From positions 1 through 64,000 of IMG/VR virus record IMGVR_UViG_3300032782_000005: a stretch of 64,000 nt of DNA. The stretch is one strand, 5' to 3'. The notes under the pieces were generated by a model. That model was not told the DNA's origin. It was given only the letters and a program-made list of their open reading frames with translations, and made no database searches. Positions 6,555 through 46,468 of the stretch are shown piece by piece (the stretch's first letter is position 1; every line of letters begins with the position of its first letter). Position numbers and translations under genes: made by a program. This stretch comes from a virus.

Positions 6555-6619
6555 GAGCGGCAAGCGGGGGCTCAATCCCGCCGGCCGCTCTGACACACCA
6601 ACCTGATGAGGAGGCTGGA
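6555..6619 (+). promoter_or_regulatory. Two-hairpin leader of endonuclease gene 1
   Basis: GAGCGGC..GCCGCTC stem, TGACACA linker, CCAACCT/AGGCTGG stem over the SD, 1 nt, ATG. Confidence 0.6.
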
Positions 6620-7120
6620 ATGCCTAAGAGCGATCCTACGCGACGTGGCACGTTCTGCGGCCTGAAAAACAGGCGGCGCTGCGGCCGATGCAAGAAGGTG
6701 AAGCATTATTCGCAGTTCCACAAGAACAGGGCCAAGAGAGGAGGCATCGGCGGCTATTGCAAGAAGTGCCGCAAGGAAAGATATCAGGAGACAGAAAAGG
6801 GCGCTGGATACGAACAGAGGCGGCGCCATTACTACGAAACGGCCCGATGGAAAAGCCTGCTTTTGCAATATGGAGTTACGCAGGAGCAATATGAGGAGAT
6901 GCACCAGGCTCAAAATGGCCTGTGCGCAATCTGCGGCAAGCCGGAAACGTATCAGTGGAGAGGGACGGTTCGCAGGCTCGCCGTAGATCATGACCACAAG
7001 ACGGGAGCAGCGCGTGGCTTGCTCTGCACGTCCTGTAATCGAGGCATCGGCAACTTGGGAGACGATCCCGAAATGCTGAAGAAAGCGATCGAGTACCTGC
7101 TCTCTTACCAGACGGAGTGA
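6620..7120 (+). CDS. Endonuclease VII-family (HNH-like) free-standing homing endonuclease
   Basis: CxxC...CKKC N-terminus; YG.T...Y..M...Q.G.CAICG...LAVDHDHKTG..RGLLC..CN.GIG. Confidence 0.9.
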   Translation: MPKSDPTRRGTFCGLKNRRRCGRCKKVKHYSQFHKNRAKRGGIGGYCKKCRKERYQETEKGAGYEQRRRHYYETARWKSLLLQYGVTQEQYEEMHQAQNGLCAICGKPETYQWRGTVRRLAVDHDHKTGAARGLLCTSCNRGIGNLGDDPEMLKKAIEYLLSYQTE

Positions 7121-7125
7121 TCCCG

Positions 7126-7665
7126 ATGGCTGCAGCCCTAGTATTGCCCAATTCGGGTCCGTATACGGGCACATGGAACGCCCTCGTTTTGGGAACCCTC
7201 AGCGATGATGGGTACTCGATCTCAGCAACGCCACAAGGACAAGAGATAAATGAGACAGATAGTTATGGCCTAACTCTCGTAGAGGCCATCTATCGTGGAA
7301 TCAATTGGCGCGCTCGCTTCCGCGGCCTCGAATTCAAGTCGGGCCTTCTTGGCGCTCTCCTCGCGTTCGGTTCCACTGCCGCGCAACCAGGCGGCGCCGG
7401 TTTCGGCACTCTGAACCCGACCCTCGCCAACATCGGCGACCGCTGGAGCAAGTACGGCGCGGCGCTGGTGCTGACCGCGATCCTCGCCAACCCCCCGACC
7501 TCTCCTCAGTCGTTGACGGCCTCGACGGCGATTCTCGCGCCGGGCCAGAACACGGAGATGATGTTCACGTCGAAGGTGAAGGAAGTGCCGATTGAGATGG
7601 TGCTTCTCCCCTATGCCTTCGTCATCAACAGCGTCACATATAACCTTCCGTTTTCGGTCACTTAG
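7126..7665 (+). CDS. Probable tail tube (major tail) protein
   Basis: About 180 aa, beta-rich; LGTLSDDGY..S...Q.I..D.YG pattern; precedes the tape-measure-like gene. Confidence 0.55.
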   Translation: MAAALVLPNSGPYTGTWNALVLGTLSDDGYSISATPQGQEINETDSYGLTLVEAIYRGINWRARFRGLEFKSGLLGALLAFGSTAAQPGGAGFGTLNPTLANIGDRWSKYGAALVLTAILANPPTSPQSLTASTAILAPGQNTEMMFTSKVKEVPIEMVLLPYAFVINSVTYNLPFSVT

Positions 7666-7677
7666 AGGATATTAAAG

Positions 7678-9024
7678 GTGGCCGAAGAAGCGGTGATTCG
7701 CATCCGTTTCGAGGGCGACGGCGGCGCACAGACGACCGCCGTTTCCGTCCCGCGTCCGACCACGCAGGTTCCCCCTCCTCCACCGCTGCCTCCTACCGGA
7801 ACTCCACCCGCCGCTCCTGCTGGCGCGCCGACAACACTTCCAAACGTCGGCGCGATGCCCAAGCTTCCAGACATGGTTCGGGAACTGGACCAGTTCTGGA
7901 AAGAGTTGGCGGAACTCAACGCCGCGATGGACCCGGACATCGTGCGGCAGCGCGTCGAGCAGGAGTTGGCGCTGGCCGACGCGCGCAGGGAATTGAACCG
8001 CGTCATGGAGGAAGAGAGGGAGTACCAAAGACCGACGGCGATCCCTGTGCCGGAACCGGCCGGCGAACAAAAATCGGGCCTGGATCGGTTCCTCGACATG
8101 CTTGGGAGTTTCCGGGGAACCATCGGGGCCAGACTCGGACCCACCGCAGGAGGCGGACTAGATATCCTTCAGGCTTTGCGCGGCATGAAGGGACTTGGGG
8201 GCCAAGCCGAGGCCGGCGAAGGCGCTGAGATGGGCGGCGAAGCGGCCGGAGTGGAAGCCGGCGCGGCCGGTGGCCCAATCGGCATTCTCGTCGCACTTGC
8301 CGCGATGGAGGTCGCCAAGGCGGAAAAGGATTTGGCCGAGGCCACGGCGGACGCAAGCAATGGCCTTCAGCAGTTCGCCGCCGTTGCCATGTCCGCAAGC
8401 GCTGATGTAGGAGCGACCTTGCAGGGATTGGGTGGAGGCGTCGCGTCGATGGGCGAGGCCGTGGAGAAAACCTCCTCATCGCTTAACCTTCTCGACCCTC
8501 TTCTGGGGATGCTGGCGGATAAGTTGGGCGCCGGCGTCAAGATATTCGGGCAAGTCCTCGAAGTGCTGGGGAACTTCACGCAGGCGATAGACCAGATCGC
8601 CGACCGCTACTCCGCTTACTCCCCGGAGATCAGCGTGGCCCAGGCTCTCGCCGACGTTTCCCAGACGCTTGGAGACCTGCGCCGCGCTCAGGAGATTGGC
8701 CCGGAGATGGCGCAATTCATCAACGAGGAATCGAAACTGCGACAACAGTTCGAGAACGAGAAGATAAAGATTCTCCGCGCCATTCTTCCGTTCGCCACGG
8801 ACGCCATGCGCCTCCTCAACGACCTGATGCCGTTTCTTGACATGGGCTTCAAGCCAATCCTCGCTCTGCTCGACGCCATCCATCAATTCATGGTTGCGCG
8901 TGGATGGGCACAAGCGAATCAGCCAGACACCGACTTCGACCTGCCGGGCCTCGATATCATGAACATGGGCGCAGGAGCCCTTCGTGGGAACCGCGAAGGC
9001 GTCAACGTCTCGCCGGTCGAATAG
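7678..9024 (+). CDS. Tape-measure-like protein (short, 448 aa)
   Basis: N-terminal VIRIRFEGD strand, then long Ala/Gly-rich amphipathic helices. Confidence 0.55.
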   Translation: MAEEAVIRIRFEGDGGAQTTAVSVPRPTTQVPPPPPLPPTGTPPAAPAGAPTTLPNVGAMPKLPDMVRELDQFWKELAELNAAMDPDIVRQRVEQELALADARRELNRVMEEEREYQRPTAIPVPEPAGEQKSGLDRFLDMLGSFRGTIGARLGPTAGGGLDILQALRGMKGLGGQAEAGEGAEMGGEAAGVEAGAAGGPIGILVALAAMEVAKAEKDLAEATADASNGLQQFAAVAMSASADVGATLQGLGGGVASMGEAVEKTSSSLNLLDPLLGMLADKLGAGVKIFGQVLEVLGNFTQAIDQIADRYSAYSPEISVAQALADVSQTLGDLRRAQEIGPEMAQFINEESKLRQQFENEKIKILRAILPFATDAMRLLNDLMPFLDMGFKPILALLDAIHQFMVARGWAQANQPDTDFDLPGLDIMNMGAGALRGNREGVNVSPVE

Positions 9025-9033
9025 GAGGGCTCC

Positions 9034-10494
9034 ATGCCTGGCACGACTGGACTTGGGCCGCTTCCGGACACCGGGAAACTTCAATACAACGGCGTCACCT
9101 GGAGCGCGCTCTACAAGTCGAAACTGGACGGCAAGGTCGTCATCGACGCCTCCCAGCGCATCACGCGCTACATGCAATGGGAGCTTCAGGTTGACGGGAT
9201 TGTCACGCTGGAGCAGGGCCTTCCCAACACGGATCAGACGTGGGCATTCATCCGGAAGAGTCTAAGCGTCGATGGAGCCGATCTGGTTTACACCGGACAG
9301 GGATTCGGCGGGCTTCAGGTCGGTCCCGGTCAGCCGACTCAGGACGTTGCGTGGGGGCCGATCCCGGAAGTCCTGAGCTTCCAACCTTTGGGCCAAGCGA
9401 GGTCGGCCTTCATCGCGTGGCGGTGCGTCGTTCGGATTCCGGAGTTGTCCACGACTCCCAATACGGTCGTGCAGTTCAGTTACGAATCGGCGCTGAGTTA
9501 CGACGAGGAGGGCTACGCGACCGTATCTCTTCGGGGAACTCTGGAGATCGCCCTTGCGCGAGCCGGCCTGCCCGGCGCCGCCAACAACCGCGTCGTCACT
9601 CAAACCGTCGATAAATTCCGCCAGTTGTGGCTCGACATCGACTTCGATCTCACGAAGTACAAGATCGTGCGCCGCGAGTTTCCTATGACCAGGGACAAGC
9701 GAACTTGCGAGTGGGAATACCAGGCGACCGAGTTGGCCCCGTTCGGATTGCCTCTCGGACACACAGGAGCGCATGGCACGATGAGTTTTCGCCCGATCCG
9801 GCCGGGCGGAGGGCAACAGGGGAAGCTTCTGGCCGTGCCGCGGTGGGTCTGCTCGATGAAGTGTACTTATGCCGTGCGGTCGGACTTCCCCCGGAGAATG
9901 GCCCAATTCGCATTCCTGAGCCTCCTCTGGTATCGCATGTGGTCGTCGCTGAACGGGTCTTTTCCTGTCGGCAATCAGAACGACGTGAACGCCAACGCCA
10001 ATCTACGAGGATTGTTGCGACAGCCATTCAAGCAGGCTGCGGCGGGAGTGCCTGTTCCGGCGCTTCCAAACGTCCCCATCGGCACGGCCGGGGCGTTGAA
10101 GTTTTACCAGCAGTTGGCCGCCAACCAGAAGCAGGTCGCCACGGCGCTGATCCCGGTAATAGCGATCAACGCAGCCGCCAACCCGCTGGCGGGCGTGCTC
10201 ACCGCAACCGCCATGCTCATGGATTTCGGCTTCGACGAGGGGCTGTATGAGGACTCGAAGACGGTGACGTTTCAGGCGGCGTGGTCGTTCTTCAGCACAT
10301 TCGAGACGGTCATGCAGGCCTCTGGGGTCTGGAATTATTCCCAGGACGTGGGTGGGAATGTGTGGTCCACGTCGGTCAAGGATATCATGGGCTGGCGCGG
10401 GCCGTTAGCTGCGCAGATCGACCCCAGCGTCGAAGTCCTTGTTGACATGGGCGGCGGCGCTCCGCTAAGCGGACCCGTGATCGTGGCCGAATGA
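9034..10494 (+). CDS. Putative tail/baseplate protein
   Basis: Strong RBS; beta-rich; follows the tape-measure-like gene. Confidence 0.45.
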   Translation: MPGTTGLGPLPDTGKLQYNGVTWSALYKSKLDGKVVIDASQRITRYMQWELQVDGIVTLEQGLPNTDQTWAFIRKSLSVDGADLVYTGQGFGGLQVGPGQPTQDVAWGPIPEVLSFQPLGQARSAFIAWRCVVRIPELSTTPNTVVQFSYESALSYDEEGYATVSLRGTLEIALARAGLPGAANNRVVTQTVDKFRQLWLDIDFDLTKYKIVRREFPMTRDKRTCEWEYQATELAPFGLPLGHTGAHGTMSFRPIRPGGGQQGKLLAVPRWVCSMKCTYAVRSDFPRRMAQFAFLSLLWYRMWSSLNGSFPVGNQNDVNANANLRGLLRQPFKQAAAGVPVPALPNVPIGTAGALKFYQQLAANQKQVATALIPVIAINAAANPLAGVLTATAMLMDFGFDEGLYEDSKTVTFQAAWSFFSTFETVMQASGVWNYSQDVGGNVWSTSVKDIMGWRGPLAAQIDPSVEVLVDMGGGAPLSGPVIVAE

Positions 10495-10495
10495 C

Positions 10496-33318: not shown

Positions 33319-34478
33319 AGACCGCGCTGCCGCTGAAGGACACGTTCACGTCCACGGGGCACAAATTTTTTGCCCATCAGGAAACGATGCGCAACTTGCG
33401 GAACGGCAAGGGTCAGCCGGTCGTCACGCACTTGATGCCCACATCGGTCTGCGCTCACTCTTGCGCCTTCTGCTCCGTCCATCATCGCCCGCACGAGGTT
33501 CTGCCGCTGGCCGACATGACGACCTATCTCGACATCCTGCTCCGCTACGGCCTGAAGGCGGTCATCATCAGTGGCGGCGGCAACCCGATCTTATACAGGT
33601 GCCCCGACACGGGAGCCGACTTCAACCGGCTTGTCGATGAGGTCTATCGGCGGGGACTGGAGATCGGCGTCATCAGCGACGGAATGCCATTGCGAGTTGA
33701 CGAGCCGACGATGCGGCAGATGTGGAAGGCTGTGCATCCGGAGACAATCGACAAGTTGACTTGGCTGCGGATCAGCATGGCCGGCTTGGATCACCAGGAG
33801 AACTGCGTCCACGTCCCAGACGTGGACCCGTCACGGACGACGCTGGGCTTTTCCTACGTCCTGCATGACATCTATGACGAACCGGCGGATAAGGCTCACG
33901 GCAAAGTATCCACGCCAGCCGACCTCATCACCGTCGGTTACGAACGACTGCATAACGACAACATTAAGCCAGTTCGGTTCGCCGAGGACCGCGTTCCGGT
34001 GCTGACCAGCCAGATCGACGAGATCGTGCGGAAGTACAAACCGACCTATGTTCGATTGCTCCCGAACTGCTTGCAACCGGAGCTGATCCAGCAGCGGTGC
34101 GATCTGCTCCAACGGATGGCCGACGCCATCGACCCGGACGTGGTGTTCGTGCAGTACAAGCCGCCGGCCGCGCCGAATGTATGCCTGCTCGGCAGCATTC
34201 ATCCAGTCCTCAATACAGATGGTTTTTGTTATCCTTGCGACAGCTGTGTATTAAACGACTCAGCAGGTCACAAATTCGCCAACCCATGGAGGATGTGTCA
34301 CTGGAGCGAGATCGCCAGCATCTACGAAAGACCGCTCCGCAGCCTGATAGATAACCCACATGAGAGATGTCCAGGGTGCGTATTTACCCAAAGCAACCTC
34401 TTGCTGGAAAAGGTGTGGAAGGGCGAGGTCGAGCCGACGCCTCCGGTCGAGACGCCGGAGCACGTCAACTTCGTCTAA
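33315..34478 (+). CDS. Radical SAM enzyme with SPASM/twitch-like C-terminus
   Basis: CAHSCAFC, ISGGGNP, C...DG..YPC...CPGC. Confidence 0.85.
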   Translation: MKTALPLKDTFTSTGHKFFAHQETMRNLRNGKGQPVVTHLMPTSVCAHSCAFCSVHHRPHEVLPLADMTTYLDILLRYGLKAVIISGGGNPILYRCPDTGADFNRLVDEVYRRGLEIGVISDGMPLRVDEPTMRQMWKAVHPETIDKLTWLRISMAGLDHQENCVHVPDVDPSRTTLGFSYVLHDIYDEPADKAHGKVSTPADLITVGYERLHNDNIKPVRFAEDRVPVLTSQIDEIVRKYKPTYVRLLPNCLQPELIQQRCDLLQRMADAIDPDVVFVQYKPPAAPNVCLLGSIHPVLNTDGFCYPCDSCVLNDSAGHKFANPWRMCHWSEIASIYERPLRSLIDNPHERCPGCVFTQSNLLLEKVWKGEVEPTPPVETPEHVNFV

Positions 34479-34506
34479 AGAAGTATAATAGCTATCGTTA
34501 AATTTC

Positions 34507-34528
34507 CTACTGGTAAAATTACCAGTAG
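34507..34528. repeat. 22-bp palindrome copy 4 (exact, opposite core orientation)
   Basis: CTACTGGTAAAATTACCAGTAG. Confidence 0.95.
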
Positions 34529-34554
34529 CCGAGGCCAGTCATGGAAGCCGCCTA

Positions 34555-34623
34555 TAGAATAATGAAGCCGGAGCGCGCGACCGCCCCGGCTTCCAGACAC
34601 AGCGAACCATGTGGGGGTCCGCC
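34555..34623 (+). promoter_or_regulatory. -10 box plus two-hairpin leader of endonuclease gene 2
   Basis: TAGAAT; GAAGCCGG/CCGGCTTC stem; CAGACACA; GCGAACC/GGTCCGC stem; 1 nt; ATG. Confidence 0.65.
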
Positions 34624-35301
34624 ATGCCGAAGAAAAGCCTATCCGTTCGCACCGATCTTGTCCACCGGCCTCCCCCTCCAGATGAAAACATCTCTGGCAA
34701 GGAATTCGGTCAGTGGAAAGTTCTTGAGTATGCCGGATCGAAACAGGGTCGGTGGTATCGCTGCCGCTGCTCATGCGGTTACATTGCCGTCGTTCATGGT
34801 GGAGAGTTAAAAGGAGGCCGTTCTTTGAGTTGCGGGCATGATGGATCGACTTACAGGCATGGCCATGGAAGTCGCGCGCATGAGAAAAGGCCAGCAGAAT
34901 ACAATGTGTGGGTTCTGATGCGTGACCGCTGCAATAACACAAACTCAAGGCACTACAAGAACTATGGTGGCCGTGGAATCAAAGTGTGTGAGCGATGGGA
35001 CGACTTCGCTGCCTTCCTCGCCGACATGGGGCCGCGCCCATCGCCGCAACACACCATCGACAGAATCAACAACGACGGCAACTACGAGCCAAGTAACTGC
35101 CGATGGGCGACGAGGGCTGAGCAGGCGAGGAACAAGAGAACGAACATCCAAATCTCGCACAATGGCACGGTCTTGTGTCTTGCGGAGTGGTGCAAGAAAT
35201 TGAATCTTCCTTATCTGCGGTCTTATCGTCGCCTCCGTAATGGCGAGAGCGTGACTGCAGTATTTGCTGAGAAAGGAGGTCAACCAAGCCATGACGACTG
35301 A
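34624..35301 (+). CDS. HNH homing endonuclease
   Basis: CRCSCG, SCG, W..M..RC.N....Y..YGGRGIKVCERW..F..F..DMG.RP....IDRINNDGNYEP.NCRWAT..EQ..N. Confidence 0.9.
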   Translation: MPKKSLSVRTDLVHRPPPPDENISGKEFGQWKVLEYAGSKQGRWYRCRCSCGYIAVVHGGELKGGRSLSCGHDGSTYRHGHGSRAHEKRPAEYNVWVLMRDRCNNTNSRHYKNYGGRGIKVCERWDDFAAFLADMGPRPSPQHTIDRINNDGNYEPSNCRWATRAEQARNKRTNIQISHNGTVLCLAEWCKKLNLPYLRSYRRLRNGESVTAVFAEKGGQPSHDD

Positions 35302-36641
35302 AAAACCAGTCCGCATCCTGCTCTCGCTGAGAGGAGGGTATGGCTTGGGTTGAGGGCGATGTCGTGACATTTGGCGTTATCCTGAAACACCTGCGAAAAC
35401 ACCGCCCCAACTGGCTTATCGACGTGGCCGCCCCGCGCGGTTCTCACTCCGCCCTCTTCGGCCTTTGCAACCGCGTCCTCTATCACGGCGAGCCGGAAGG
35501 CAAGTACGACAAGGCGGTGGACCTTGACCTGGAGGACTCCTACGTCCACTTCAAGGACCGTCCCAGCAGCAAGACCGTCTTCAACCTGCGTCTTCAGTTC
35601 GGTCTGGAATACGACCCGGAGTGCGGGGGCTACGAGATCGCTGTTGGGCCAGAGGCGACGGATCGCGCCGAGCGATGGCTGCGGAGCGTCATCAGTCCGA
35701 CGCCCGGCGTGTTCTCGCCGTATCCGGCGGTCGTCCTCCACTACCGCGGTGGCTCCAGCAAGGCTCGCAAGGACCTCGAACACTGGCAGGGCGAGGTTCT
35801 GGTCAACGCCATCCGCCAATCCGGACGCACGCCGATCCTTCTGGACTGGTCCGACTCTCCCATGGACGCCGTGCGCGTCCCCGACAAGGTGTGGGGAGGT
35901 TTCGGAAACGGCGACGCCGAGACGATGGCCGCCCTGATTAGGCTCTCGGAAGCCTTCATTGGCATCGACTCCGGGCCTGGCAAGGTTGCCTCGGCGACGG
36001 ACACGCCAAGCCTGATCGTCTGGACCAAGCATCATCCGGCGCGTTACCACGACCCTGCTCCGAACACCGAACATCTGATCCCGCACGACTGGCGGGGAAT
36101 GCAGCCGATCGAGTGGGACGCCGAACGGGAGAAATTCTTCACGGAGAACTACCGCTTCCGGACATACGCCGGCGAGCACGGTCTTGTGGGCGAGATCATC
36201 CAGTGGCTTCAGAAGACTCTGCGCTGGGAAGGCTGGCTCGACCCCGGCGTGAAGTTCGTGATCCCGGCTCGAATCGAATCGGCGGCGTGGGTGATGGCGA
36301 AGATCAGGAACATCGCCGGGAAGCGCGTCGCCGACTGCATCGTGTCGGCTCAGCCCGGCGACAGCGAGGGCCTGAAGGTTGTGGAGTTTGTGCGAAGCTT
36401 CGGCTTCTTCCGCGACGTGCGAGTTCTTCCCATTGCGGTGCATCAGGGTCCGGAGAAGCCACGGGACACGCGCGGACGCTATCTCTACGTCTCCGACGGT
36501 TTGAGGGACGGCTACCATTACCTCGTGCCGGATACCGTGTCCCAGTTAGGGAAGCCGTTGGCCGACTGGTTGCCGGACGTTCCGGCTGACTTCGAGATGG
36601 TCAAGAGGGCGGAGGAATGGCTGCAATTGACGAATGCTTGA
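35291..36641 (+). CDS. GT9 glycosyltransferase, interrupted after codon 20 by GGT-TGA (7 extra nt)
   Basis: AAGGAGGT RBS at 35291; ILL....GLG*/GDVV...LKHL; FIGIDSGP...A.AT.TP. Confidence 0.75.
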
Positions 36642-36816
36642 GGCCCATCATGTTCGGGGCCAAATGCTCGCGCTGCCCTTATTGGGTGAATATTTCAGCA
36701 AACGCGACTCATGAAGTGCGAGATTATTTGGTCGATAGCGGCTGGGAAATTCTGACGCAGCCAGTGCAATTGCTCTGTCCATGGTGCGTTGACAAAAAGA
36801 GGGCCAAGGAAAAGCC

Positions 36817-38175
36817 ATGACTCCCATCGACCGACTGATCCAGTCCACGCAGGCGACCGAGAAGCGCATCGTCGTCCTCGGCGACTCGATGCGCGACGTT
36901 CATGTCCATGGCGACCTTCTCCCTTCCCAGGACGGCGTGCAGAAATTCGTGGAACGCCGCCGTCTTGAGACTCCCGGCGGCGCAGCGGGGGCGGCGCGGC
37001 AACTTTGCCGGTGGAGCGCGGAGACAATTCTGCTATCGGTCGGTCACTGTGGCGATCCTCCATACCACGAATCATGGAACGCTGTTGACTGGTCGCATTG
37101 CATGATGAGTCGTCGTATGCCCGAAAAGCACCGCTTCCTCGACGACTCCGGGCGCATCCTCTGGAGACACGACAAGGACCACGGCTACGGCGCTGACGCG
37201 AACCTGATGGAGTCGTGGCGGAAGACGATCCTGGAGCGGCTGTACGAGTTGGCCCCGGACGCCGTGCTGATTTCCGATTACGACAAGGGCTTCCTGACGG
37301 AGGCGATGATCCGCGAAGTCATCGGGTGGTGCAATGAGAAGGGCGTCCCGATTGTAGCGGACGCGAAGCGCGAGCCGAAAGTATACGACGGCGCGATCTT
37401 GAAATTCAACCACGACTATTGGCTCAACCACACGACAACAGGTAAGAGCGAAGTGATAACCTTGGGGGCCGAGCCTCCTGGGGTCAATGGCCGGGTGCTT
37501 CCTAAGATGGCCATTGGCGGCATTGTTTGCAAAAATCACGTCGGAGCTGGCGATTGCTTTTCCGCCACGCTCGCACTCGCCCTGGCTCACGGCTTCTCAT
37601 TGGAGGACGCCGCCGCCATCGCCCATTCCGCCGGACGCATTTACGTCCAGCATCTTCACGGTCGTCCGCCATGGCCTTTTGAGATTCGGCGCGACCTAAA
37701 TCCGGTCGGGGGAAAGGTCTTATCAGCGTTCGACCTCGCCGCCTTGTGTAGGGCGGCCCCCGGCCGGATTTGCTGGGCCAACGGGTGCTTTGACCTCCTC
37801 GGCCCACACCACGTCCAGTTCCTCCAGAATGCCCGCAGACAGGGCGATCTCCTGGTGGTCGGGCTGAACGACGACCAGAGCGTGAGGCGGCTTAAAGGGC
37901 CAAAACGCCCCATCATGGCCCTTCCCGAACGGACTGCCATGCTGGCAGCGCTCGATTGCGTGGATTGGGTCGTGCCGTTCTCCGCCGACGCCCCCGTGGA
38001 AGAACTGTCGGCGCTGCGTCCCCATGTGCGCGTCTGCGCCGACATTCCGGATCGCAACGGCGCCGGGGACGAATACGCAGGCGAGGTCAAACTGCTCCCG
38101 ATGGTTCCGCAGGCTTCAACCACGGCGATGGTGGAGAGGATAATCCGGTTGCAGCGAACCCCGTCTCCGGCGTAG
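36817..38175 (+). CDS. hldE: Bifunctional heptose-7-P kinase / heptose-1-P adenylyltransferase (HldE/RfaE-like)
   Basis: IVVLGD.M.D, PGGAA, VLISDYDKG, GAGD; NGCFDLL..HH, VVGLN.D.SVRRLKG..RPI. Confidence 0.85.
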   Translation: MTPIDRLIQSTQATEKRIVVLGDSMRDVHVHGDLLPSQDGVQKFVERRRLETPGGAAGAARQLCRWSAETILLSVGHCGDPPYHESWNAVDWSHCMMSRRMPEKHRFLDDSGRILWRHDKDHGYGADANLMESWRKTILERLYELAPDAVLISDYDKGFLTEAMIREVIGWCNEKGVPIVADAKREPKVYDGAILKFNHDYWLNHTTTGKSEVITLGAEPPGVNGRVLPKMAIGGIVCKNHVGAGDCFSATLALALAHGFSLEDAAAIAHSAGRIYVQHLHGRPPWPFEIRRDLNPVGGKVLSAFDLAALCRAAPGRICWANGCFDLLGPHHVQFLQNARRQGDLLVVGLNDDQSVRRLKGPKRPIMALPERTAMLAALDCVDWVVPFSADAPVEELSALRPHVRVCADIPDRNGAGDEYAGEVKLLPMVPQASTTAMVERIIRLQRTPSPA

Positions 38176-40218: not shown

Positions 40219-41618
40219 AGCGACTCCTCTATCTTCTGCCTATTCTGTTCGGCCTCGCCGCCGTGGCATCTATCCCGGCCGCCGATCCGCCGGACGCGCC
40301 GCCGGCGCCGGTTCACCATCCGCGCGGCTACAAACCTCTTCTCGCCGAGCAGGCCAAGGCCCTTCATGACGCCGCCTTCAAACGCCACGGATATCTGATG
40401 GCGTGGTTGGCCAAGCGTGCAACCCCGCCGGCCGTGTTCGACGCCGTCACGCAGGGATGGGTGCAGCCGATCGTGGATCAAGGCCAGTGCGGGGATTGCT
40501 ACGGGGTAAGTGCATCCGACGCGGTGACGGGCAGTTTCATCAAGGCCGGCTGGGGAAAGAACGACGGCAGTTTCAAGCTGAGCGACCAGTACGGCCTCGA
40601 CTGCGGCATGTACGAGGGAGGCTGCAACGGCGGCGACGAGGCCCAGGTGATCGACGCATACAAATCGAAGGGAGGCCCAGCCGAGCACTACGTCGATGCC
40701 AGCGGCAAGGCCGTTTCGGACTATGGCCCTTACACGGCAAACCCCGGCTCGTGCAAGCTAAAGGCCGGTGCGAAACTGTGGCAGGTTCAGGATTGGGGTT
40801 ATGTCGCGGGAGATCAGGGACAGGGGCCGGCGTCGCTGGCGGCGTACAAGGCCGCCCTGATGCAATACGGCCAGCTATCCATCGCCCTCGACGCCTCCAG
40901 TTTCGACAATTACAACAGCGGCGTCATCACGAACCTCGGCAACTCCATCGATCATGCGATTACCTGCGTGGGGTGGGACGATACTAAGCAGGCCCTTCAC
41001 TGCCGCAACAACTGGGGAACGTCGTGGGGCGAGCAAGGCTACTGCTGGATCAGCTACAAGGCAGTTCCGCAGATCGTGGAACCGATCTGGATTCTGGCTC
41101 CGGCCGTGACGCCTCCGCCAGTGCCGCCGCCTCCGGGGCCGACACCACCGCCGACGCCCAGCGGCAACCTCTACACCATGACGACCGATCCGACGACGGG
41201 GGTTATCAGCTTCACGCCGACCACGACGCCGACGCCGGCCGGGAGCGTCACGCTGACGCCGGATCAGGTGAAGCAATTGCAGCAATGGTTGGGTGGGCAG
41301 AACAAGGAGGCGCCTCTGCCGCCGCCTGAGCAGAAGAAGCCTGCCAAGCCGATGCCTCCGCCCGAGCCGCCGGAGTCGTTGGAATGGCGTCGGCCGCGCG
41401 ACCCCAGCATCACCAACGCGGCGGAGTTGTGGAGTCCGACGGCTCTCCGAGGTGAATGGATCACGCATCCCGGTGTGTATCTGCCTCGCCGGGGCGACGG
41501 CTGGGGCGAGGCATCTGAACCTCCCATCCCACCACCCGATAGTCGATGGGACCACAACCATTCGTATGTTTGGCAGACGCCGGGAGGACGCATCCCGGTG
41601 TCGGAGTTGAGACCTTAA
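40215..41618 (+). CDS. Secreted papain-family (C1A) cysteine peptidase with Pro-rich tail
   Basis: Signal peptide; DQGQCGDCY (catalytic Cys), DHAI..VGW (His), RNNWGTSWGEQGY (Asn). Confidence 0.9.
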   Translation: MKRLLYLLPILFGLAAVASIPAADPPDAPPAPVHHPRGYKPLLAEQAKALHDAAFKRHGYLMAWLAKRATPPAVFDAVTQGWVQPIVDQGQCGDCYGVSASDAVTGSFIKAGWGKNDGSFKLSDQYGLDCGMYEGGCNGGDEAQVIDAYKSKGGPAEHYVDASGKAVSDYGPYTANPGSCKLKAGAKLWQVQDWGYVAGDQGQGPASLAAYKAALMQYGQLSIALDASSFDNYNSGVITNLGNSIDHAITCVGWDDTKQALHCRNNWGTSWGEQGYCWISYKAVPQIVEPIWILAPAVTPPPVPPPPGPTPPPTPSGNLYTMTTDPTTGVISFTPTTTPTPAGSVTLTPDQVKQLQQWLGGQNKEAPLPPPEQKKPAKPMPPPEPPESLEWRRPRDPSITNAAELWSPTALRGEWITHPGVYLPRRGDGWGEASEPPIPPPDSRWDHNHSYVWQTPGGRIPVSELRP

Positions 41619-43136: not shown

Positions 43137-43285
43137 AGGTGAACCAAGAGCCCCCGTGCGGGGCTGGAGGGAACGATGATCCTAACCCCCAACTACGCCA
43201 TGTCGCCCTTCTTCTGGCTCTCCGGCGGCCCGTGGAGCTGCTGGCACAGCGAACCGCCGCGAAGGATGATGGTGAAGGGAAGGCC

Positions 43286-43507
43286 ATGAGAAGCCACAAG
43301 TGTGAACAGTGCGGCGAGTTCTTCACGGCGCTAGATTCACCTCGCCTGTGTCCGGCGTGCGAGGAATATGAGGCGCTCATAGCTGACGATCTTCCCGAAT
43401 TGACCGATGAGGAGCGAGTCGCCATGAACTCGCTGCCGCCTGAGTTTGTGGAGCGAATTCTGCGAGGCGAGCGGCCTTTAACCGATCCAAAGACGTTTGC
43501 GAACTGA
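43286..43507 (+). CDS. Small Zn-ribbon protein
   Basis: CEQC...CPAC. Confidence 0.5.
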   Translation: MRSHKCEQCGEFFTALDSPRLCPACEEYEALIADDLPELTDEERVAMNSLPPEFVERILRGERPLTDPKTFAN

Positions 43508-43534
43508 TTCGCCCCCTACTCATGGAGGTCCGAA

Positions 43535-43771
43535 ATGAAAACCCTTGTGTCCGCCGCCCTCGCCCTCTGTCTGCTGTGTCTCGTGGCCTGCTTCGCGCGA
43601 GCCGACTGCCGCAACGGCTCCTGCTCTGCTCCGCCGACGTACACCTACGTCCAGACCAGCGGTGTCGTGGTGCAGGTCACGACCTCGGCTCCAGTTGGAT
43701 TTCGTCAGCGTCACCTGCAACGCCGCATCGACCGGCTGAATCGGCGGGCGGTGCGAGTGGCGGCGAGGTAA
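43535..43771 (+). CDS. Small secreted protein
   Basis: GGAGGT RBS; signal peptide then DCRNGSC; Arg-rich tail. Confidence 0.6.
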   Translation: MKTLVSAALALCLLCLVACFARADCRNGSCSAPPTYTYVQTSGVVVQVTTSAPVGFRQRHLQRRIDRLNRRAVRVAAR

Positions 43772-43871
43772 GGATGATCTTTCGGGGTGGGGTCGCAAAA
43801 ACCTCGTGGGAGCGACAACGTGTCGTAGGATTCTTTCCCATTGAACGAGGCTGGGTGCCCCGCCCCGATTC

Positions 43872-43893
43872 CTACTGGTAAAATTACCAGTAG
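43872..43893. repeat. 22-bp palindrome copy 5 (exact, opposite core orientation)
   Basis: CTACTGGTAAAATTACCAGTAG. Confidence 0.95.
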
Positions 43894-43932
43894 AAAATTA
43901 TCCCCTCTCATTTATAGCACATCAAGCTCCTC

Positions 43933-43960
43933 TTGCCTGCATCTACCAGGACGCTATCAT
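43933..43960 (+). promoter_or_regulatory. Sigma70-like promoter, probably leaderless
   Basis: TTGCCT-16-TATCAT, ATG 7 nt later, no SD. Confidence 0.5.
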
Positions 43961-43967
43961 GTAACGC

Positions 43968-44162
43968 ATGGACGCCACCAATCTGCGACCGACAAGCTTC
44001 CGCTTCGACCCTAAGTTTCTGGCCGAGCTAAAAGAACTGACTGATCTGTTGAGCAGCGGGGACGCCGGGCGTCTGACGCGCACGCAGGTCATCAGGGTTG
44101 CGGTCAGGCGACAACTCGATTTCGAGAAAGCCCGAAGGAAAAATTTCTCAAAATCGGATTGA
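43968..44162 (+). CDS. Ribbon-helix-helix (CopG/Arc-like) regulator
   Basis: PTSFRFD strand, helix, TRTQVIRVAV helix. Confidence 0.65.
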   Translation: MDATNLRPTSFRFDPKFLAELKELTDLLSSGDAGRLTRTQVIRVAVRRQLDFEKARRKNFSKSD

Positions 44163-44187
44163 CATTTCGCTATGCGGTAGCGAAGAT
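44159..44187 (+). promoter_or_regulatory. Promoter with inverted-repeat operator
   Basis: TTGACA then TTCGCTA-5-TAGCGAA across the spacer; weak -10. Confidence 0.55.
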
Positions 44188-44223
44188 GAGGATGTGGACG
44201 GAAGGCTCAACAAAGGAGACGCA

Positions 44224-44400
44224 ATGTTTCAGGGCTTTTTCGCCTGGCTCCGCAACCGCGTCAAGCAGGCGGTCGTGGCCGGCGTGCAGGAGGCGATGGA
44301 CGAACTGGCGACGGCGAAGGTGCAGGACGCGCCCGCCGAGCCGCAGTTGTTGACGTTCAAGGAGTCGGAAACGCCGGCCAAGCGCCGCAAGGCCGAGTGA
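44224..44400 (+). CDS. Small hypothetical protein
   Basis: AAAGGAG RBS. Confidence 0.6.
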   Translation: MFQGFFAWLRNRVKQAVVAGVQEAMDELATAKVQDAPAEPQLLTFKESETPAKRRKAE

Positions 44401-44423
44401 TCGTCCCAAAGGGAGGACGGGCG

Positions 44424-44579
44424 ATGTATTACATGTACGACGACGGGCAGTACATCATCTGCACACGTCTAGCGCCGCAAACGGCGCGAGCGGCGCAGGA
44501 TTGTCTTGCGGGGCCACTCACACTGGAGCAGGCCCGCGAATGGGCTTCTGCGGAAGAACGGTCGGTTATTTGGCGCTGA
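44424..44579 (+). CDS. Small hypothetical protein
   Basis: GGGAGG RBS. Confidence 0.5.
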   Translation: MYYMYDDGQYIICTRLAPQTARAAQDCLAGPLTLEQAREWASAEERSVIWR

Positions 44580-44603
44580 CGCACACAAGCAAAGGGGAAC
44601 GCA

Positions 44604-45044
44604 ATGCCTCTCACCAAGTACCAAGAAGACGAACGTATTCGCTGGCTCGACAGCCTGCGAGCCATGATCGAGTACGCCGAGGCGCATCCAGAGATGCCCG
44701 CGCCGGCGTGCTGGGACATGGCAAGCTTCTTCCCGAAAACGCGGGAGGAAATGGCCGAAGTCGCCCGTTATCACGCTCCGGTCGAAAAGGTTTTCTCCGG
44801 TCCACTTGAGGATGACTGGTTCTATATCAGGAAGAAAATCGGTGGCATCCAGCTTCGGTTCAATATGAGACGTGGAGAGGTCTGCACGAAGGTTCCGACT
44901 GGCGTGAAGAAACTGACCGTTCCCGCCGAGCCGGCCAAACCCGCGCGTGAAATTGAAATCGAACAGTACGAGTGGCGGTGCGACGCCATCCTCGCTCCGA
45001 GCGGCGAAGATGCGACGCCGGTTCCGGCCGAACACGCCATTTGA
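44604..45044 (+). CDS. Hypothetical phage protein
   Basis: AAAGGGG RBS; VCTKVPTG...EWRC. Confidence 0.65.
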   Translation: MPLTKYQEDERIRWLDSLRAMIEYAEAHPEMPAPACWDMASFFPKTREEMAEVARYHAPVEKVFSGPLEDDWFYIRKKIGGIQLRFNMRRGEVCTKVPTGVKKLTVPAEPAKPAREIEIEQYEWRCDAILAPSGEDATPVPAEHAI

Positions 45045-45059
45045 TGGAGCATCGCCGCC

Positions 45060-45413
45060 ATGCGCATCCTCGAAAACCGCTTTGATATCGAAGTCGAGAC
45101 GTGGGACGACCCAGGAGACTATCCAAACGCGCTCGCCGCCGGACCGCTGCCGTCTTACCAGTATGTCTGCGAAGTGCCAGGTCGGCTGATAGTCCAACTG
45201 GAGTTTGGCGATGACGATCCGGGCGAGGAGGCGGTGGAGATCGCACAAGAACACGCCGACTTGCCCGATGGCGTCACGGTCACGAAATGGGACATGCAGC
45301 GCGACGGCGACAAACTGACCTTCGAGGTCGCGGACTTCGAGGCAGAACGGCCAGAGCGGGAAGGCCCGGACCCGGACGAGTTGCGCGATGCGTGGCTGGA
45401 TCGGAATTACTGA
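45060..45413 (+). CDS. Acidic hypothetical protein
   Basis: GGAG RBS; very Asp/Glu rich. Confidence 0.65.
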   Translation: MRILENRFDIEVETWDDPGDYPNALAAGPLPSYQYVCEVPGRLIVQLEFGDDDPGEEAVEIAQEHADLPDGVTVTKWDMQRDGDKLTFEVADFEAERPEREGPDPDELRDAWLDRNY

Positions 45414-45421
45414 GGCAAGTT

Positions 45422-45508
45422 GGGAGCAATCACCGCAGTACAGGGTCAAAGGCTGCGACGGGATCGGGCATAACGTCCCGGAAGCGGGTTCGAGCCCCGC
45501 TGCTCCCC
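45422..45508 (+). tRNA. Degenerate tRNA-like element, CAT in the anticodon position
   Basis: GGGAGCA/TGCTCCC acceptor; GCGGG-TTCGAGC-CCCGC T-arm; 7-nt loop GGCATAA; oversized D-arm; no U33 or CCA. Confidence 0.5.
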
Positions 45509-45511
45509 CTG

Positions 45512-45663
45512 AATGCGTCTGCGGCGTGGAAGGACACGCAAAACTGTTCGCCGGGAAGCCGAATAGGAATCGAGGCGGCGAACCTGGACCTTTAGCTGCG
45601 TGGGCTATTTCCTCGATACCTAGACCCGGCGGCAGCCGGTACTCAAGCCCGGCCGGACGCATT
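45512..45663 (+). ncRNA. Second tRNA-like fold with a long stem replacing the anticodon arm
   Basis: AATGCGTCTG/CGGACGCATT terminal stem; GCGTG-GAAGGA-CACGC; GCCGG-loop-CCGGC; internal ATCGAGG/CCTCGAT. Confidence 0.45.
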
Positions 45664-45684
45664 CACAAACCAAGGGAGACACAA

Positions 45685-46395
45685 ATGTCCACGGCCATCG
45701 AGCCGTCCGCAATCACGCCGCTTTCCATCCTCCATGAAGCGATGGAGCGAGGCGTCAGTCCCGACCATCTGGAACGCCTTCTAGACTTGCAGGAGCGGTG
45801 GGAGAAGAACCGCGCCGCCGAGGCGTTCGCCACCGCGATCACCGGCTTTCAAGCCGAGTGCCCGACCGTCTTCAAGTCGCGTCAGGCAGGCAAGGAAGGC
45901 GACAAGATGCGGTACAAGTTCGCCTCTTTTGACGACGTGATGCAGCAGGCGGCGCCGCTCCTCTCGAAGTGGAAGATCGCCGTCTCCTTCCGCACCGAGC
46001 AGGCCCAGGCCGCCCTCAAGGTCATCTGCCGCGTCCGGGTCGGCATCCACTACGAGGATCACGAGTTCACGACGCCCATCCCGGCCATGTCCGTCAACGA
46101 CACGCAGAAGTTCGGGGCGGCCCTGTCCTACGCCAAGCGCTACTGTTTCTGCGCCGCCCTGAACATCGTGACGACCGACCGCGACACGGACGCCGCCGGC
46201 CTGATGGAGATGATCGGCGGCGACGAGATCGCCGTCATCAACGGCCTTCTGGAGAAGCATGGACGCGAGTTGGACGCCTTTCTGGCGTGGGCGAGCAAGG
46301 CGGCCGGCTTCGAGATCGAGTCGCTGGATAAGTTGCCCAAGGCGATTTACGCCAAGGCCGTTGACGTGCTGAGCCGCGCGGCGAGGAGGGCATAA
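45685..46395 (+). CDS. ERF-family ssDNA annealing protein
   Basis: LERLLDLQERWE...AF..A...FQ, YKFA..DDV, Q..GAALSYAKRY...AALNI...D.D. Confidence 0.85.
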   Translation: MSTAIEPSAITPLSILHEAMERGVSPDHLERLLDLQERWEKNRAAEAFATAITGFQAECPTVFKSRQAGKEGDKMRYKFASFDDVMQQAAPLLSKWKIAVSFRTEQAQAALKVICRVRVGIHYEDHEFTTPIPAMSVNDTQKFGAALSYAKRYCFCAALNIVTTDRDTDAAGLMEMIGGDEIAVINGLLEKHGRELDAFLAWASKAAGFEIESLDKLPKAIYAKAVDVLSRAARRA

Positions 46396-46400
46396 ATTCA

Positions 46401-46468
46401 TAGAATGGTAGAGCCGGATGGCTGGAACCACCCGGCTCACGAACACAACCCGCTGTCAGGAGCGAGTC
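46401..46468 (+). promoter_or_regulatory. -10 box plus two-hairpin leader of endonuclease gene 3
   Basis: TAGAAT; GAGCCGG/CCGGCTC stem; ACGAACACA; ACCCGCT/AGCGAGT stem; 1 nt; ATG. Confidence 0.65.

What the first reader, a model, noticed from the sequence alone, without database searches (positions are those of the whole stretch)
6555..46468. Three unrelated homing endonuclease genes share one two-hairpin 5' leader
Seen before EndoVII-type (ATG 6620), HNH (ATG 34624) and NUMOD4-HNH (ATG 46469). P1 is a GC-rich stem with an internal A/C-type mismatch (GAAGCCGG-A-GCG..CGC-C-CCGGCTTC; GAGCCGG-A-TGG..CCA-C-CCGGCTC; GAGCGGC-AA-GCGGG..CCCGC-CG-GCCGCTC). A linker ending in ACACA follows. P2 is a 7-bp stem with one mismatch that covers the SD. 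Then exactly 1 nt and ATG. Sequences differ but pairing is kept, which looks like covariation. Two have TAGAAT 3-4 nt before P1. Known: T4-like homing endonucleases are translationally repressed by RBS-sequestering hairpins. Inference: a shared cis-regulatory RNA class, possibly protein-bound at ACACA, that travels with diverse endonucleases. A related hairpin at 60432-60464 precedes an early gene.
Basis: partly seen in the sequence, partly recalled or inferred. Interest (0 to 1): 0.75.

Follow-up and report, generated by a model that had tools for sequence, protein, structure and literature searches.

The report
Antisense RNA cassette heading homing endonucleases
The shared "two-hairpin leader" in front of three unrelated phage DNA-cutting-enzyme genes is real, but its conserved fold, promoter box and terminator fit the opposite strand, so it is most likely a small SymR-like antisense RNA gene that covers the nuclease's ribosome site and holds nuclease production down.

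Summary
All three elements are present as described. A covariance model built from two of them finds the third and nothing else in the 79.5-kb phage genome.

The reading needs a strand flip:
- The - strand folds into two clean hairpins (z -5 to -6.6; + strand -1.4 to -3).
- "ACACA" is the complement of UGUGU, which pairs with the complement of the start codon.
- A TAnnnT box lies at ORF +13/14..+19, and a U-rich tail follows the second hairpin.

This is the geometry of E. coli SymR/symE:
- Rfam's symR model hits relatives at 44 bits, below its 61-bit cut-off.
- My phage-only model finds the E. coli symE leader (E 1e-5).
- One DNA pattern retrieves about 65 phage cassettes, mostly before HNH, EndoVII or GIY-YIG genes. 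In bacteria it retrieves SymE toxin genes (7 of 40 ORFs).
- An independent set of 69 elements shows strong - strand covariation.

No expression data exist. Promoter and terminator consensus is weak in two of the three window copies. Earlier follow-ups of this scan reached the same reading on other genomes. I found no paper describing it.

The parts
6542..6625 (-). Predicted antisense sRNA 1 (about 84 nt). It is complementary to the 5' UTR, SD, ATG and first 6 nt of the EndoVII-type gene.
   Evidence: MFE -44.4 kcal/mol with z -5.07, against z -2.99 for the + strand. R3 scores 57.5 bits. Best Rfam hit is PtaRNA1 on the - strand, 21.2 bits, below its cut-off.
6633..6638 (-). -10-like box TAGGAT of sRNA 1, inside the ORF at +14..+19.
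   Evidence: Sequence. Same position as the TAGAAT of E. coli symR. Positional enrichment: 16/21 members vs 1/112 own-genome genes.
6592..6624 (-). Hairpin H1 of sRNA 1. The stem includes the complement of the ATG and the loop CCUCAUC carries the anti-SD.
   Evidence: 9 WC, 3 G.U and 1 mismatch on the - strand. Fold.
6555..6590 (-).
   Evidence: The tail does not pass the consensus terminator rule.
6620..7120 (+). EndoVII-type endonuclease gene (166 aa), the presumed target.
   Evidence: Pfam PF02945, E 2.6e-27. It is the only Endonuclease_7 match in the genome.
34552..34628 (-). Predicted antisense sRNA 2 (about 77 nt), opposite the start of the HNH gene.
   Evidence: MFE -44.8 with z -6.56 and ensemble frequency 0.84; the + strand gives -26.4 with z -1.37. 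R3 scores 58.7 bits.
34636..34641 (-). -10-like box TAGGCT of sRNA 2 (ORF +13..+18). A -35-like TGGACA lies at 34659-34664 with a 17-nt spacer.
   Evidence: Sequence. It fails the strict two-hexamer consensus scan.
34596..34628 (-). H1 of sRNA 2: a 13-bp stem (9 WC + 4 G.U) with loop CCCACAU.
34564..34593 (-). H2 of sRNA 2 (12 bp, 1 G.U) plus the tail AUUAUUCUAU at 34552-34563; terminator-like.
   Evidence: It passes the consensus terminator scan on the - strand.
34624..35301 (+). HNH endonuclease gene (225 aa, phrog_374 type), the presumed target.
   Evidence: PHROG phrog_374, E 2.8e-62.
46399..46475 (-). Predicted antisense sRNA 3 (about 77 nt), opposite the start of the NUMOD4-HNH gene.
   Evidence: MFE -44.4 with z -6.31; the + strand gives -28.1 with z -2.90. 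R3 scores 62.9 bits.
46482..46487 (-). -10-like box TAGAAT of sRNA 3 (ORF +14..+19). The hexamer is identical to that of E. coli symR.
46440..46475 (-). H1 of sRNA 3: a 15-bp stem (11 WC + 4 G.U) with loop CCUGAC.
46411..46438 (-). H2 of sRNA 3 (12 bp, 2 G.U) plus the tail UACCAUUCUAUG at 46399-46410.
   Evidence: The tail does not pass the consensus terminator rule.
46469..47032 (+). NUMOD4 + HNH_3 endonuclease gene (187 aa) between the Erf-like and RecE-like genes; the presumed target.
   Evidence: Pfam PF07463 and PF13392. Neighbours identified. It is the only HNH_3 match in the genome.
60417..60508 (-). Weak, partial relative: an H2-like perfect hairpin plus the tail GUUUCAUUU, and TAGGAT at ORF +10..+15, but no H1. 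It precedes a 74-aa hydrophobic ORF at 60487-60711.
   Evidence: R3 14.9 bits, E 0.044. Folds. No Pfam or PHROG family.

Best explanation
Each 'leader' is the DNA of a compact, cis-encoded antisense small-RNA gene on the strand opposite the endonuclease gene. It has the SymR/symE kind of layout.

Shown by sequence:
- A -10-like box TAnnnT lies inside the endonuclease ORF at +13/14..+18/19.
- Seven nucleotides downstream of that box, on the - strand, a 13-15-bp hairpin (H1) begins. Its 5' arm is the complement of codon 2 and the start codon.
- The H1 loop carries the anti-Shine-Dalgarno sequence.
- One to three bases later comes a second, near-perfect 12-14-bp hairpin (H2, the complement of P1) with a U-rich tail.

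Inferred:
- A roughly 75-85-nt RNA is transcribed from about ORF +5/+6 and ends after H2.
- It pairs with the whole 5' UTR, SD and AUG of the endonuclease mRNA, probably starting by loop-loop contact with the weak P2 hairpin that presents the SD.
- It blocks ribosome binding, as SymR does for symE, and so keeps a potentially toxic nuclease low.
- The + strand TAGAAT just before P1 may be the endonuclease's own -10. That would give face-to-face promoters.

The cassette, including the first six or seven codons, is portable. It has been joined to unrelated nuclease ORFs.
For: 1. Strand asymmetry in the window. The three copies have 15 G.U vs 1 A.C on the - strand. The - strand folds at -44.4 to -44.8 kcal/mol with z -5.1 to -6.6. 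The + strand gives z -1.4 to -3.0.

2. Strand asymmetry in relatives. The - strand was the more stable in 20 of 21 members found with a + strand model. It was also the more stable in 69 of 74 sites found by a pattern that does not include H2, with a mean difference of -10.3 kcal/mol.

3. A strand-neutral helix finder on independent members gives 124 G.U vs 24 A.C in H2 (p 2e-17).

4. Covariation in 69 independent elements. 91.9% of cells are paired against 64% when shuffled and 33-47% when slid. 524 cells have changes on both sides against 169 in shuffles, and 0 of 500 shuffles reach that. 13 of 14 H2 pairs show compensatory change.

5. The -10 box. 16 of 21 members found by a model that stops at the ATG have a - strand TAnnnT at +13/14. 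In this genome 1 of 112 genes does (p 1e-25). Inner positions lean to T/A/A, and G occurs at -14 in 35 of 52.

6. Link to SymR. The Rfam symR model hits relatives full length on the antisense strand at 43.6 and 44.1 bits (E 2e-5 and 5e-5). The phage-only model R2 finds the E. coli K-12 symE leader as the top hit, in register with the ATG (19.7 bits, E 1.1e-5). Annotated symR starts 6 nt inside symE and has TAGAAT at symE +14..+19.

7. The same DNA pattern in bacterial genomes gives cassettes before SymE_toxin genes (7 of 40 ORFs).

8. Established knowledge. The symR promoter lies inside the symE ORF. Mutating its -10 abolishes SymR and raises SymE protein more than 7-fold (PMC1891008).

9. Association with nucleases. 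In this genome the cassette precedes three of the four endonuclease-type genes identified and no other gene.
Against: - No transcript evidence. No RNA run is listed for this DNA.
- By a strict sigma-70 consensus scan, none of the three - strand promoters passes. Only the H2 and tail of copy 2 pass the terminator rule.
- The -35 signal across the family is weak (mean 2.9 of 6 against 2.2-2.6 at shifted positions).
- The window copies get no symR hit in Rfam at E<10. Relatives stay below the 61-bit gathering score.
- The window-only model R1 reaches the E. coli locus with only 9.7 bits, E 0.053.
- Any cis-antisense RNA over a translation start shares an anti-SD, a CAU and a terminal hairpin. Part of the likeness to SymR could therefore be convergence.
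- The alignment used for covariation was fitted to the model, and many members are related to each other.
- A fourth HNH-like gene of the phage (genome 76568-77446, - strand) lacks the hairpins.
Confidence: 0.75

Rival explanations
1. The element works on the + strand as an mRNA leader: P1 stabilises or insulates the transcript, a protein binds ACACA, and P2 sequesters the ribosome site in cis, as in T4 I-TevI, segB or Aeh1 mobE.
For: P1 and P2 do form in + strand folds of copies 2 and 3. RBS-sequestering hairpins are the established control of T4-type homing endonucleases (PMC2988022). A -10-like TAGAAT sits 3-4 nt before P1 in two copies. The target mRNA of an antisense RNA necessarily carries mirror-image hairpins, so P2 may still help by presenting the SD.
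Against: Selection keeps the - strand helices. Wobble pairs on the - strand outnumber those on the + strand 124:24 in an unbiased finder and 15:1 in the window. The + strand z-scores are only -1.4 to -3.0, and P2 is missing from the L1 minimum-energy fold. ACACA is explained by pairing on the - strand and covaries with codon 2. A conserved TAnnnT inside the ORF has no role in this model. No late-type promoter lies inside the hairpin as it does in T4.
Confidence: 0.1
2. The - strand hairpins act only as a one-way terminator or insulator against antisense transcription entering from the inserted endonuclease cassette. They could instead serve as a DNA-level recombination or cassette boundary. 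No regulatory sRNA is made.
For: H2 with its U-rich tail looks like a - strand terminator. All other genes of this phage are on the + strand. Short conserved cassette ends could aid illegitimate recombination. The partial copy at 60417-60508 keeps only H2.
Against: This model does not explain H1, which spans exactly the SD and ATG complement with compensatory changes. It does not explain the fixed -10 box 7 nt upstream of H1. It does not explain the match to the expressed SymR RNA. G.U-dependent helices argue for RNA, not duplex DNA.
Confidence: 0.08
3. The three copies are merely recent duplicates of one stretch of DNA with no RNA function, and the apparent structure is chance in a GC-rich genome.
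For: The genome is 61.6% GC and is full of stable hairpins (508 windows at -17 kcal/mol or below). L2 and L3 share identical outer stem sequence.
Against: The element recurs with the same architecture in contigs of 32-65% GC. There are hundreds of compensated changes. It sits at a fixed register to start codons of unrelated genes.
Confidence: 0.02

Closest known systems
SymR / symE of Escherichia coli (type I toxin-antitoxin-like locus; Rfam RF01809; Kawano, Aravind and Storz 2007, PMC1891008)
   Same: - A cis-antisense RNA of about 77 nt covers the SD and start codon, and its 5' end lies 6 nt inside the ORF.
- Its -10 box TAGAAT sits at ORF +14..+19.
- It has two hairpins joined by ..GUGAUUAG.. 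(GUGGUUAG in phages).
- The first codons are alike: symE begins ATG ACT GAC ACG CAT TCT ATT, and many phage nucleases begin M-[ATS]-[DE]-x-x-S-[IT].
- The models detect each other.
- One DNA pattern finds both phage nuclease cassettes and bacterial SymE_toxin genes.
   Different: - The targets here are DNA endonucleases of homing type (EndoVII, two kinds of HNH), not the AbrB-fold SymE.
- The carrier is a virulent-looking phage genome, not a chromosomal restriction island.
- The window copies are GC-rich, have GACACA instead of CTAACCAC, and are not detected by the Rfam model. Relatives score 28-44 bits against a cut-off of 61.
- No LexA box was seen here.
- Expression is untested.
T4-type translational control of homing endonucleases (I-TevI, I-TevII, I-TevIII, segB, Aeh1 mobE; PMC2988022)
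   Same: The purpose is the same: restrain translation of a selfish nuclease at its ribosome binding site. The position is the same, immediately upstream of the ATG. The mRNA can form a hairpin that includes the SD.
   Different: In T4 a very stable hairpin on the mRNA itself hides the SD, and a late promoter inside it gives transcripts that lack the 5' arm. Here the mRNA hairpin is weak and mismatched. The conserved helices are on the other strand, and the conserved promoter box points the other way.
Other cis-antisense controllers of a translation start: PtaRNA1 (RF01811), plasmid countertranscripts (ctRNA_pGA1, R1162), IS10 RNA-OUT/RNA-IN
   Same: Each is a small RNA read opposite the 5' end of a potentially harmful or dosage-sensitive gene, with an anti-SD or anti-AUG in or next to a stem-loop and a terminal hairpin. 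The - strand of L1 aligns full length to PtaRNA1 (21.2 bits) and to ctRNA_pGA1 (15.6 bits).
   Different: All scores are far below the gathering cut-offs (47 and 45 bits) and are not significant (E 0.11 and 2.6). The R1162 model matched the mRNA-sense strand of three relatives, also below threshold. These are analogies of layout, not shown homology. IS10 was not tested here.

Membership tests
SymR antisense RNA (Rfam RF01809) | Scores at or above the Rfam gathering cut-off (61 bits). | tested here: not met
   The window has no hit at gathering or at E<10. Relatives score 43.6 (L080), 44.1 (L276) and 28.1 (L335) bits.
SymR antisense RNA (Rfam RF01809) | Encoded opposite the 5' end of its target, spanning SD and start codon, with its 5' end a few nt inside the ORF. 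| tested here: met
   This is shown by sequence geometry only. H1 begins at ORF +5/+7 and covers the ATG and SD complement in all three copies. E. coli symR starts at symE +6. The real 5' end is not measured.
SymR antisense RNA (Rfam RF01809) | Promoter -10 embedded in the target ORF. | tested here: met
   TAGGAT, TAGGCT and TAGAAT lie at +13/14..+18/19, and E. coli has TAGAAT at +14..+19. 16 of 21 members have the box against 1 of 112 background genes. The boxes fail a strict two-hexamer scan.
SymR antisense RNA (Rfam RF01809) | Detected reciprocally by an independent model built without E. coli sequence. | tested here: met
   R2 finds the symE leader as top hit, 19.7 bits, E 1.1e-5, full length. 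The window-only model R1 gives only 9.7 bits, E 0.053.
SymR antisense RNA (Rfam RF01809) | The target gene encodes SymE (PF08845). | tested here: not met
   The targets are PF02945, phrog_374 HNH, and PF07463+PF13392. In bacteria the same pattern precedes PF08845 in 7 of 40 ORFs.
SymR antisense RNA (Rfam RF01809) | The RNA is made and represses translation of the target. | not testable with these tools
   No RNA run is listed for this DNA.
T4-type RBS-sequestering hairpin with internal late promoter | A very stable mRNA hairpin that buries the SD. | tested here: not met
   P2 is 7 bp with an A.C mismatch. It is absent from the minimum-energy fold of L1. The + strand z-scores are -1.4 to -3.0.
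T4-type RBS-sequestering hairpin with internal late promoter | A promoter placed so that late transcripts lack the 5' arm of the hairpin. | tested here: not met
   The only + strand -10-like box (TAGAAT) lies upstream of P1 and P2. Consensus scans find none inside.
PtaRNA1 (Rfam RF01811) | Scores at or above the gathering cut-off (47 bits). | tested here: not met
   L1 - strand scores 21.2 bits, E 0.11.
Intrinsic (Rho-independent) terminator, - strand | A GC-rich hairpin followed by a U-rich run. | tested here: inconclusive
   Copy 2 passes the consensus rule. Copies 1 and 3 do not. Family-wide, the tail is T-rich (positions 3-9 are T in 24-34 of 53).

The most novel reading that the evidence does not exclude
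One portable SymR-type module has been grafted repeatedly onto unrelated nuclease genes in phages (EndoVII, several HNH lineages, GIY-YIG) and onto SymE toxins in bacteria. The module consists of facing promoters, a roughly 75-nt 5' UTR, an antisense RNA and the first six or seven codons. On this reading many free-standing homing endonucleases are run as type-I-toxin-antitoxin-like units, and the E. coli symER locus is one domesticated member of a much larger, largely phage-borne family.
Probability: 0.55. Interest if true: 0.8.

Novelty: new variant of a known kind. Interest (0 to 1): 0.7.

Why it matters
Homing endonucleases are the commonest selfish genes of phages. The known way they are kept harmless is an mRNA hairpin plus a late promoter, worked out in T4. 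A conserved antisense-RNA gene built into the first codons would be a second, widespread control.

It would have several consequences:
- It would explain the odd shared N-termini of unrelated nucleases.
- It would show that a regulatory cassette, not just the nuclease ORF, is the mobile unit.
- It would tie the orphan E. coli SymR/SymE pair to a large family.
- It would supply a ready-made, compact antisense switch for tool building.
- It warns annotators that 'leaders' with A.C mismatches should be read on the other strand.

All of this is directly testable with a Northern blot and a reporter.

Tried and rejected
- **Rfam at gathering scores.** No hit in the window. At E<10 over the whole window there were only chance-level hits: sul1, CRISPR-DR20 and two eukaryotic models.
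- **Close relatives of the phage.** Megablast of 34000-37000 against GenBank phages found nothing. Erf homologues in IMG/VR are only about 30% identical. I therefore could not compare an empty site with a filled one to see whether the cassette arrives together with the nuclease.
- **Expression.** No RNA holder is listed.
- **P1 as a + strand terminator.** Rejected because no U run follows it on the + strand.
- **Linker as an rrn-type boxA after a boxB-like hairpin.** This was considered by eye and dropped. Half of the motif is inside the stem, and pairing on the - strand explains it fully.
- **Strict sigma-70 scan.** No promoter passed in any of the three copies. I keep the -10 claim on positional conservation only.
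- **The -35 element.** Only a weak TTG signal at 17-nt spacing.
- **R1162 plasmid antisense model.** It gave sub-threshold hits on the mRNA-sense strand of three relatives. I treat these as two-hairpin look-alikes.
- **The hairpin at 60432-60464.** It is not a full member because it has no H1.
- **H1 wobble statistics.** The outer H1 wobble counts in the pattern-derived set are forced by the pattern, so I rely on H2 and the inner part of H1 only.
- **Literature.** Searches for SymR with HNH or phage, and for antisense RNA with homing endonuclease, found no description of this cassette. The nearest is the unrelated CfrI asRNA of cyanophage S-PM2.

Full report
**What is there**

The window is the first 64 kb of a complete 79,484-bp phage genome with direct terminal repeats, assembled from a wetland metagenome. 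It is 61.6% GC, and essentially all genes lie on the + strand.

- 6620-7120 is an Endonuclease_7 protein (Pfam E 2.6e-27).
- 34624-35301 is an HNH endonuclease of phrog_374 type (E 2.8e-62).
- 46469-47032 is NUMOD4 plus HNH_3.

The third gene sits between an Erf-like annealing protein and a RecE-like exonuclease. All three are poorer in GC (52-56%) than the genome, as expected for acquired selfish genes.

**Checking the observation**

P1, the ACACA linker, the 7-bp P2 that ends 1 nt before the ATG, and TAGAAT before two of the copies are all in the sequence.

A covariance model built from copies 2 and 3 only (R1) finds copy 1 as the next best hit in the entire genome on both strands. The hit is 24.8 bits, E 3e-6, full length and in register with the ATG. 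Nothing else exceeds 11 bits. The repeat is therefore real and specific.

Family searches of the whole genome find exactly one HNH_3 gene, one Endonuclease_7 gene, no PF01844 and no GIY-YIG. A fourth HNH-like ORF lies on the - strand outside the window (genome 76568-77446). It has only a CCTAACAC-SD-ATG remnant after a TATAAT and no hairpins. So three of four nuclease genes carry the element, and none of the roughly 110 other genes does.

**It is a family**

The same model finds the element immediately upstream of homologues of the HNH gene in unrelated IMG/VR contigs of 42-62% GC.

A second model (R2) finds it before EndoVII homologues (L188, L195/196, L205) and a few other ORFs. Most relatives have CTAACC(A/G)C where the window has GACACA.

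**The strand**

I folded -80..+8 on both strands for 21 members found with the + strand models. The - strand was the more stable in 20 of them, often by 15-25 kcal/mol.

The - strand fold is always the same:
- H1, a long hairpin whose 5' arm is the complement of codon 2 and the ATG. Its loop is the anti-SD. Its 3' arm is the complement of the 'linker'.
- One to three unpaired bases.
- H2, a near-perfect hairpin that is the complement of P1.
- A U-rich tail.

It covaries with codon 2: ATGGCT goes with AACCAC, ATGCCK with GACAC, and ATGTCC with GAACAC.

For the three window copies the predicted RNAs compare as follows:

| Copy | - strand MFE (kcal/mol) | - strand z | + strand z |
|---|---|---|---|
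| 1 | -44.4 | -5.1 | -3.0 |
| 2 | -44.8 | -6.6 | -1.4 |
| 3 | -44.4 | -6.3 | -2.9 |

Ensemble frequencies of the - strand folds are 0.5-0.8. A strand-neutral helix finder counts 15 G.U against 1 A.C on the - strand.

**A promoter box in the ORF**

All three copies have a - strand TAnnnT at ORF +13/14..+18/19: TAGGAT, TAGGCT and TAGAAT. Each lies 7 nt before the base of H1.

The models R1 and R2 stop at the ATG, so this feature is independent of how the members were found. 16 of 21 members have it. In this genome 1 of 112 genes has it, and about 1.5% is expected by chance (p 1e-25).

In a larger set the inner positions lean to T/A/A. G is at -14 in 35 of 52. There is a weak TTG at 17-nt spacing.

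**An independent set**

I scanned IMG/VR for CTAACCAC-N18-34-ATGGCT-N6-8-ANNNTA, a pattern that contains nothing of H2 and little of H1.

Of 74 unique sites, 69 fold better on the - strand, with a mean difference of -10.3 kcal/mol. About 65 show the full two-hairpin architecture with tails such as CGUAUUUUA.

With A.C and G.U scored alike, H2 has 124 G.U against 24 A.C on the - strand (p 2e-17). The 12 nt after H2 are T-rich.

A - strand model (R3, built from the first 21 members plus E. coli) confirms 69 elements in these loci, including second copies not found by the pattern. On their alignment:
- 91.9% of cells are paired, against 64% when shuffled and 33-47% when slid.
- 524 cells have changes on both sides, against 169 in shuffles (0 of 500 shuffles reach it).
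- 13 of 14 H2 pairs show compensatory change.

Read on the + strand, the same columns pair less well (H2 83% against 95%). That alignment is fitted to the - strand model, so I rest the strand call on the neutral finder.

**What follows the cassette**

Of 58 downstream ORFs in phage contigs, Pfam names 16 HNH_3, 4 Endonuclease_7, 4 HNH, 3 HNH_5, 5 AP2, 1 GIY-YIG and 1 T5orf172. PHROGs adds 11 of the phrog_374 HNH type and 9 of an EndoVII type. A minority are Bro-N, Rha, Dam or unknown.

**Comparison with what is known**

Rfam has no hit at its curated thresholds. At relaxed thresholds the SymR antitoxin model (RF01809, cut-off 61 bits) matches relatives full length on the antisense strand: L080 at 43.6 bits (E 2e-5), L276 at 44.1 bits (E 5e-5) and L335 at 28.1 bits.

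The - strand of window copy 1 aligns best to PtaRNA1, another type I antitoxin RNA. The score is 21.2 bits against a cut-off of 47, so it is not significant.

In the other direction, the phage-only model R2 picks the E. coli K-12 symE leader as the top hit in a 6-kb region, in register with the symE ATG (19.7 bits, E 1.1e-5). The window-only model R1 also ranks it first, but weakly (9.7 bits, E 0.053).

In the RefSeq annotation symR starts 6 nt inside symE. The sequence shows TAGAAT at symE +14..+19 and ..GUGAUUAG.. between two hairpins.

Kawano et al. showed three things (PMC1891008; review PMC4147584):
- The symR promoter lies in the symE ORF.
- Its -10 mutant loses SymR.
- SymE protein then rises more than 7-fold, with only a 3-fold change in mRNA.

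The same DNA pattern in bacterial genomes gives 57 of 81 sites with the full architecture, across Proteobacteria, Acidobacteriota and Actinobacteria. 7 of 40 downstream ORFs are SymE_toxin.

So the phage nuclease cassettes and symER are the same kind of module and very probably related. By Rfam's own threshold, and by target protein, the window copies are not members of RF01809.

The T4 literature describes mRNA hairpins with late promoters for homing endonucleases and mentions no antisense RNA control (PMC2988022). My literature searches found none either.

**Mechanism proposed (inferred)**

- A roughly 75-85-nt RNA starts at about ORF +5/+6 and ends after H2.
- It pairs with the complete 5' UTR, SD and AUG of the nuclease mRNA and blocks initiation.
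- The weak P2 hairpin of the mRNA, which shows the SD in its loop, may be the first contact for the anti-SD loop of H1.
- The + strand TAGAAT just before P1 occupies the place where the symE promoter region lies in E. coli. It may be the nuclease's own -10, which would give facing promoters about 100 bp apart.

**Weak points**

- There is no expression evidence.
- No copy passes a strict sigma-70 scan. Only copy 2 passes a terminator rule.
- The host, and therefore its promoter consensus, is unknown.
- Part of the likeness to SymR may be convergent.
- Members are partly related to each other.
- E-values from my models are rough.

**Earlier work of this scan**

After I had reached this reading, the notebook of the scan showed that earlier follow-ups had reported the same antisense cassette before homing endonucleases on at least eight other genomes, several naming SymR. 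These are unchecked AI notes and are not independent evidence. My tests above were made on this window and on loci fetched here.

**Verdict**

The best explanation is a SymR-like cis-antisense sRNA cassette (confidence 0.75), a new variant of a known kind.

Noticed in passing
L119 16568-17446 (- strand) = genome 76568-77446, outside the window: This is the only clear - strand gene of the phage: a 292-aa HNH-like ORF (phrog_1271 E 7.5e-11, phrog_374 E 6e-10). Upstream it has TATAAT, then CCTAACAC, GAGGA and ATG, but neither hairpin. It may be a stripped or decayed version of the cassette.
   Followed up: partly
window 60395-60464: Two tandem GC-rich perfect hairpins (60395-60422 and 60432-60464) lie before a 74-aa hydrophobic ORF (60487-60711) with no family match. 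The second hairpin, with its - strand tail GUUUCAUUU and a TAGGAT at ORF +10..+15, scores weakly with the antisense model (14.9 bits) but lacks H1.
   Followed up: partly
window 34479-34551: An AT-rich spacer lies between the upstream gene and cassette 2. It holds a perfect TATAAT (34484-34489) and a perfect 9-bp palindrome CTACTGGTA-AAAT-TACCAGTAG (34507-34528). It could be a promoter and operator for the HNH gene, or part of the inserted DNA.
   Followed up: no
window 6620-7120, 34624-35301, 46469-47032: The three nuclease genes have 52-56% GC and GC3 of 0.51-0.68. The genome has 61.6% GC and neighbouring genes have GC3 of 0.7-0.85. This is consistent with recent acquisition.
   Followed up: partly
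L378-L457 (bacterial genome contigs): The same cassette pattern is common in bacterial genomes, including Dyella, Enterobacter, Klebsiella, Paraburkholderia, Rhizobium, Acinetobacter, Thalassomonas, Acidobacteriota and Thermoleophilia. It mostly precedes short ORFs of 40-180 aa. Only 7 of 40 are recognised as SymE_toxin. The rest have no Pfam family and may be unrecognised toxins.
   Followed up: partly
L274 2967-3035 (- strand): An int-alpA RNA (RF02996) match above its gathering score (39.3 against 35.8 bits) lies next to a cassette-bearing HNH gene in an IMG/VR contig.
   Followed up: no
L064 614-689 and 2200-2275; G002 (contig of L115), several sites: Some phage contigs carry two to four copies of the cassette before different nuclease genes, as this window does.
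   Followed up: partly
window 40270-40294: Sub-threshold match to sul1 RNA (26.4 against 36.2 bits, E 0.99). It is a short GC hairpin inside a gene and probably chance.
   Followed up: no
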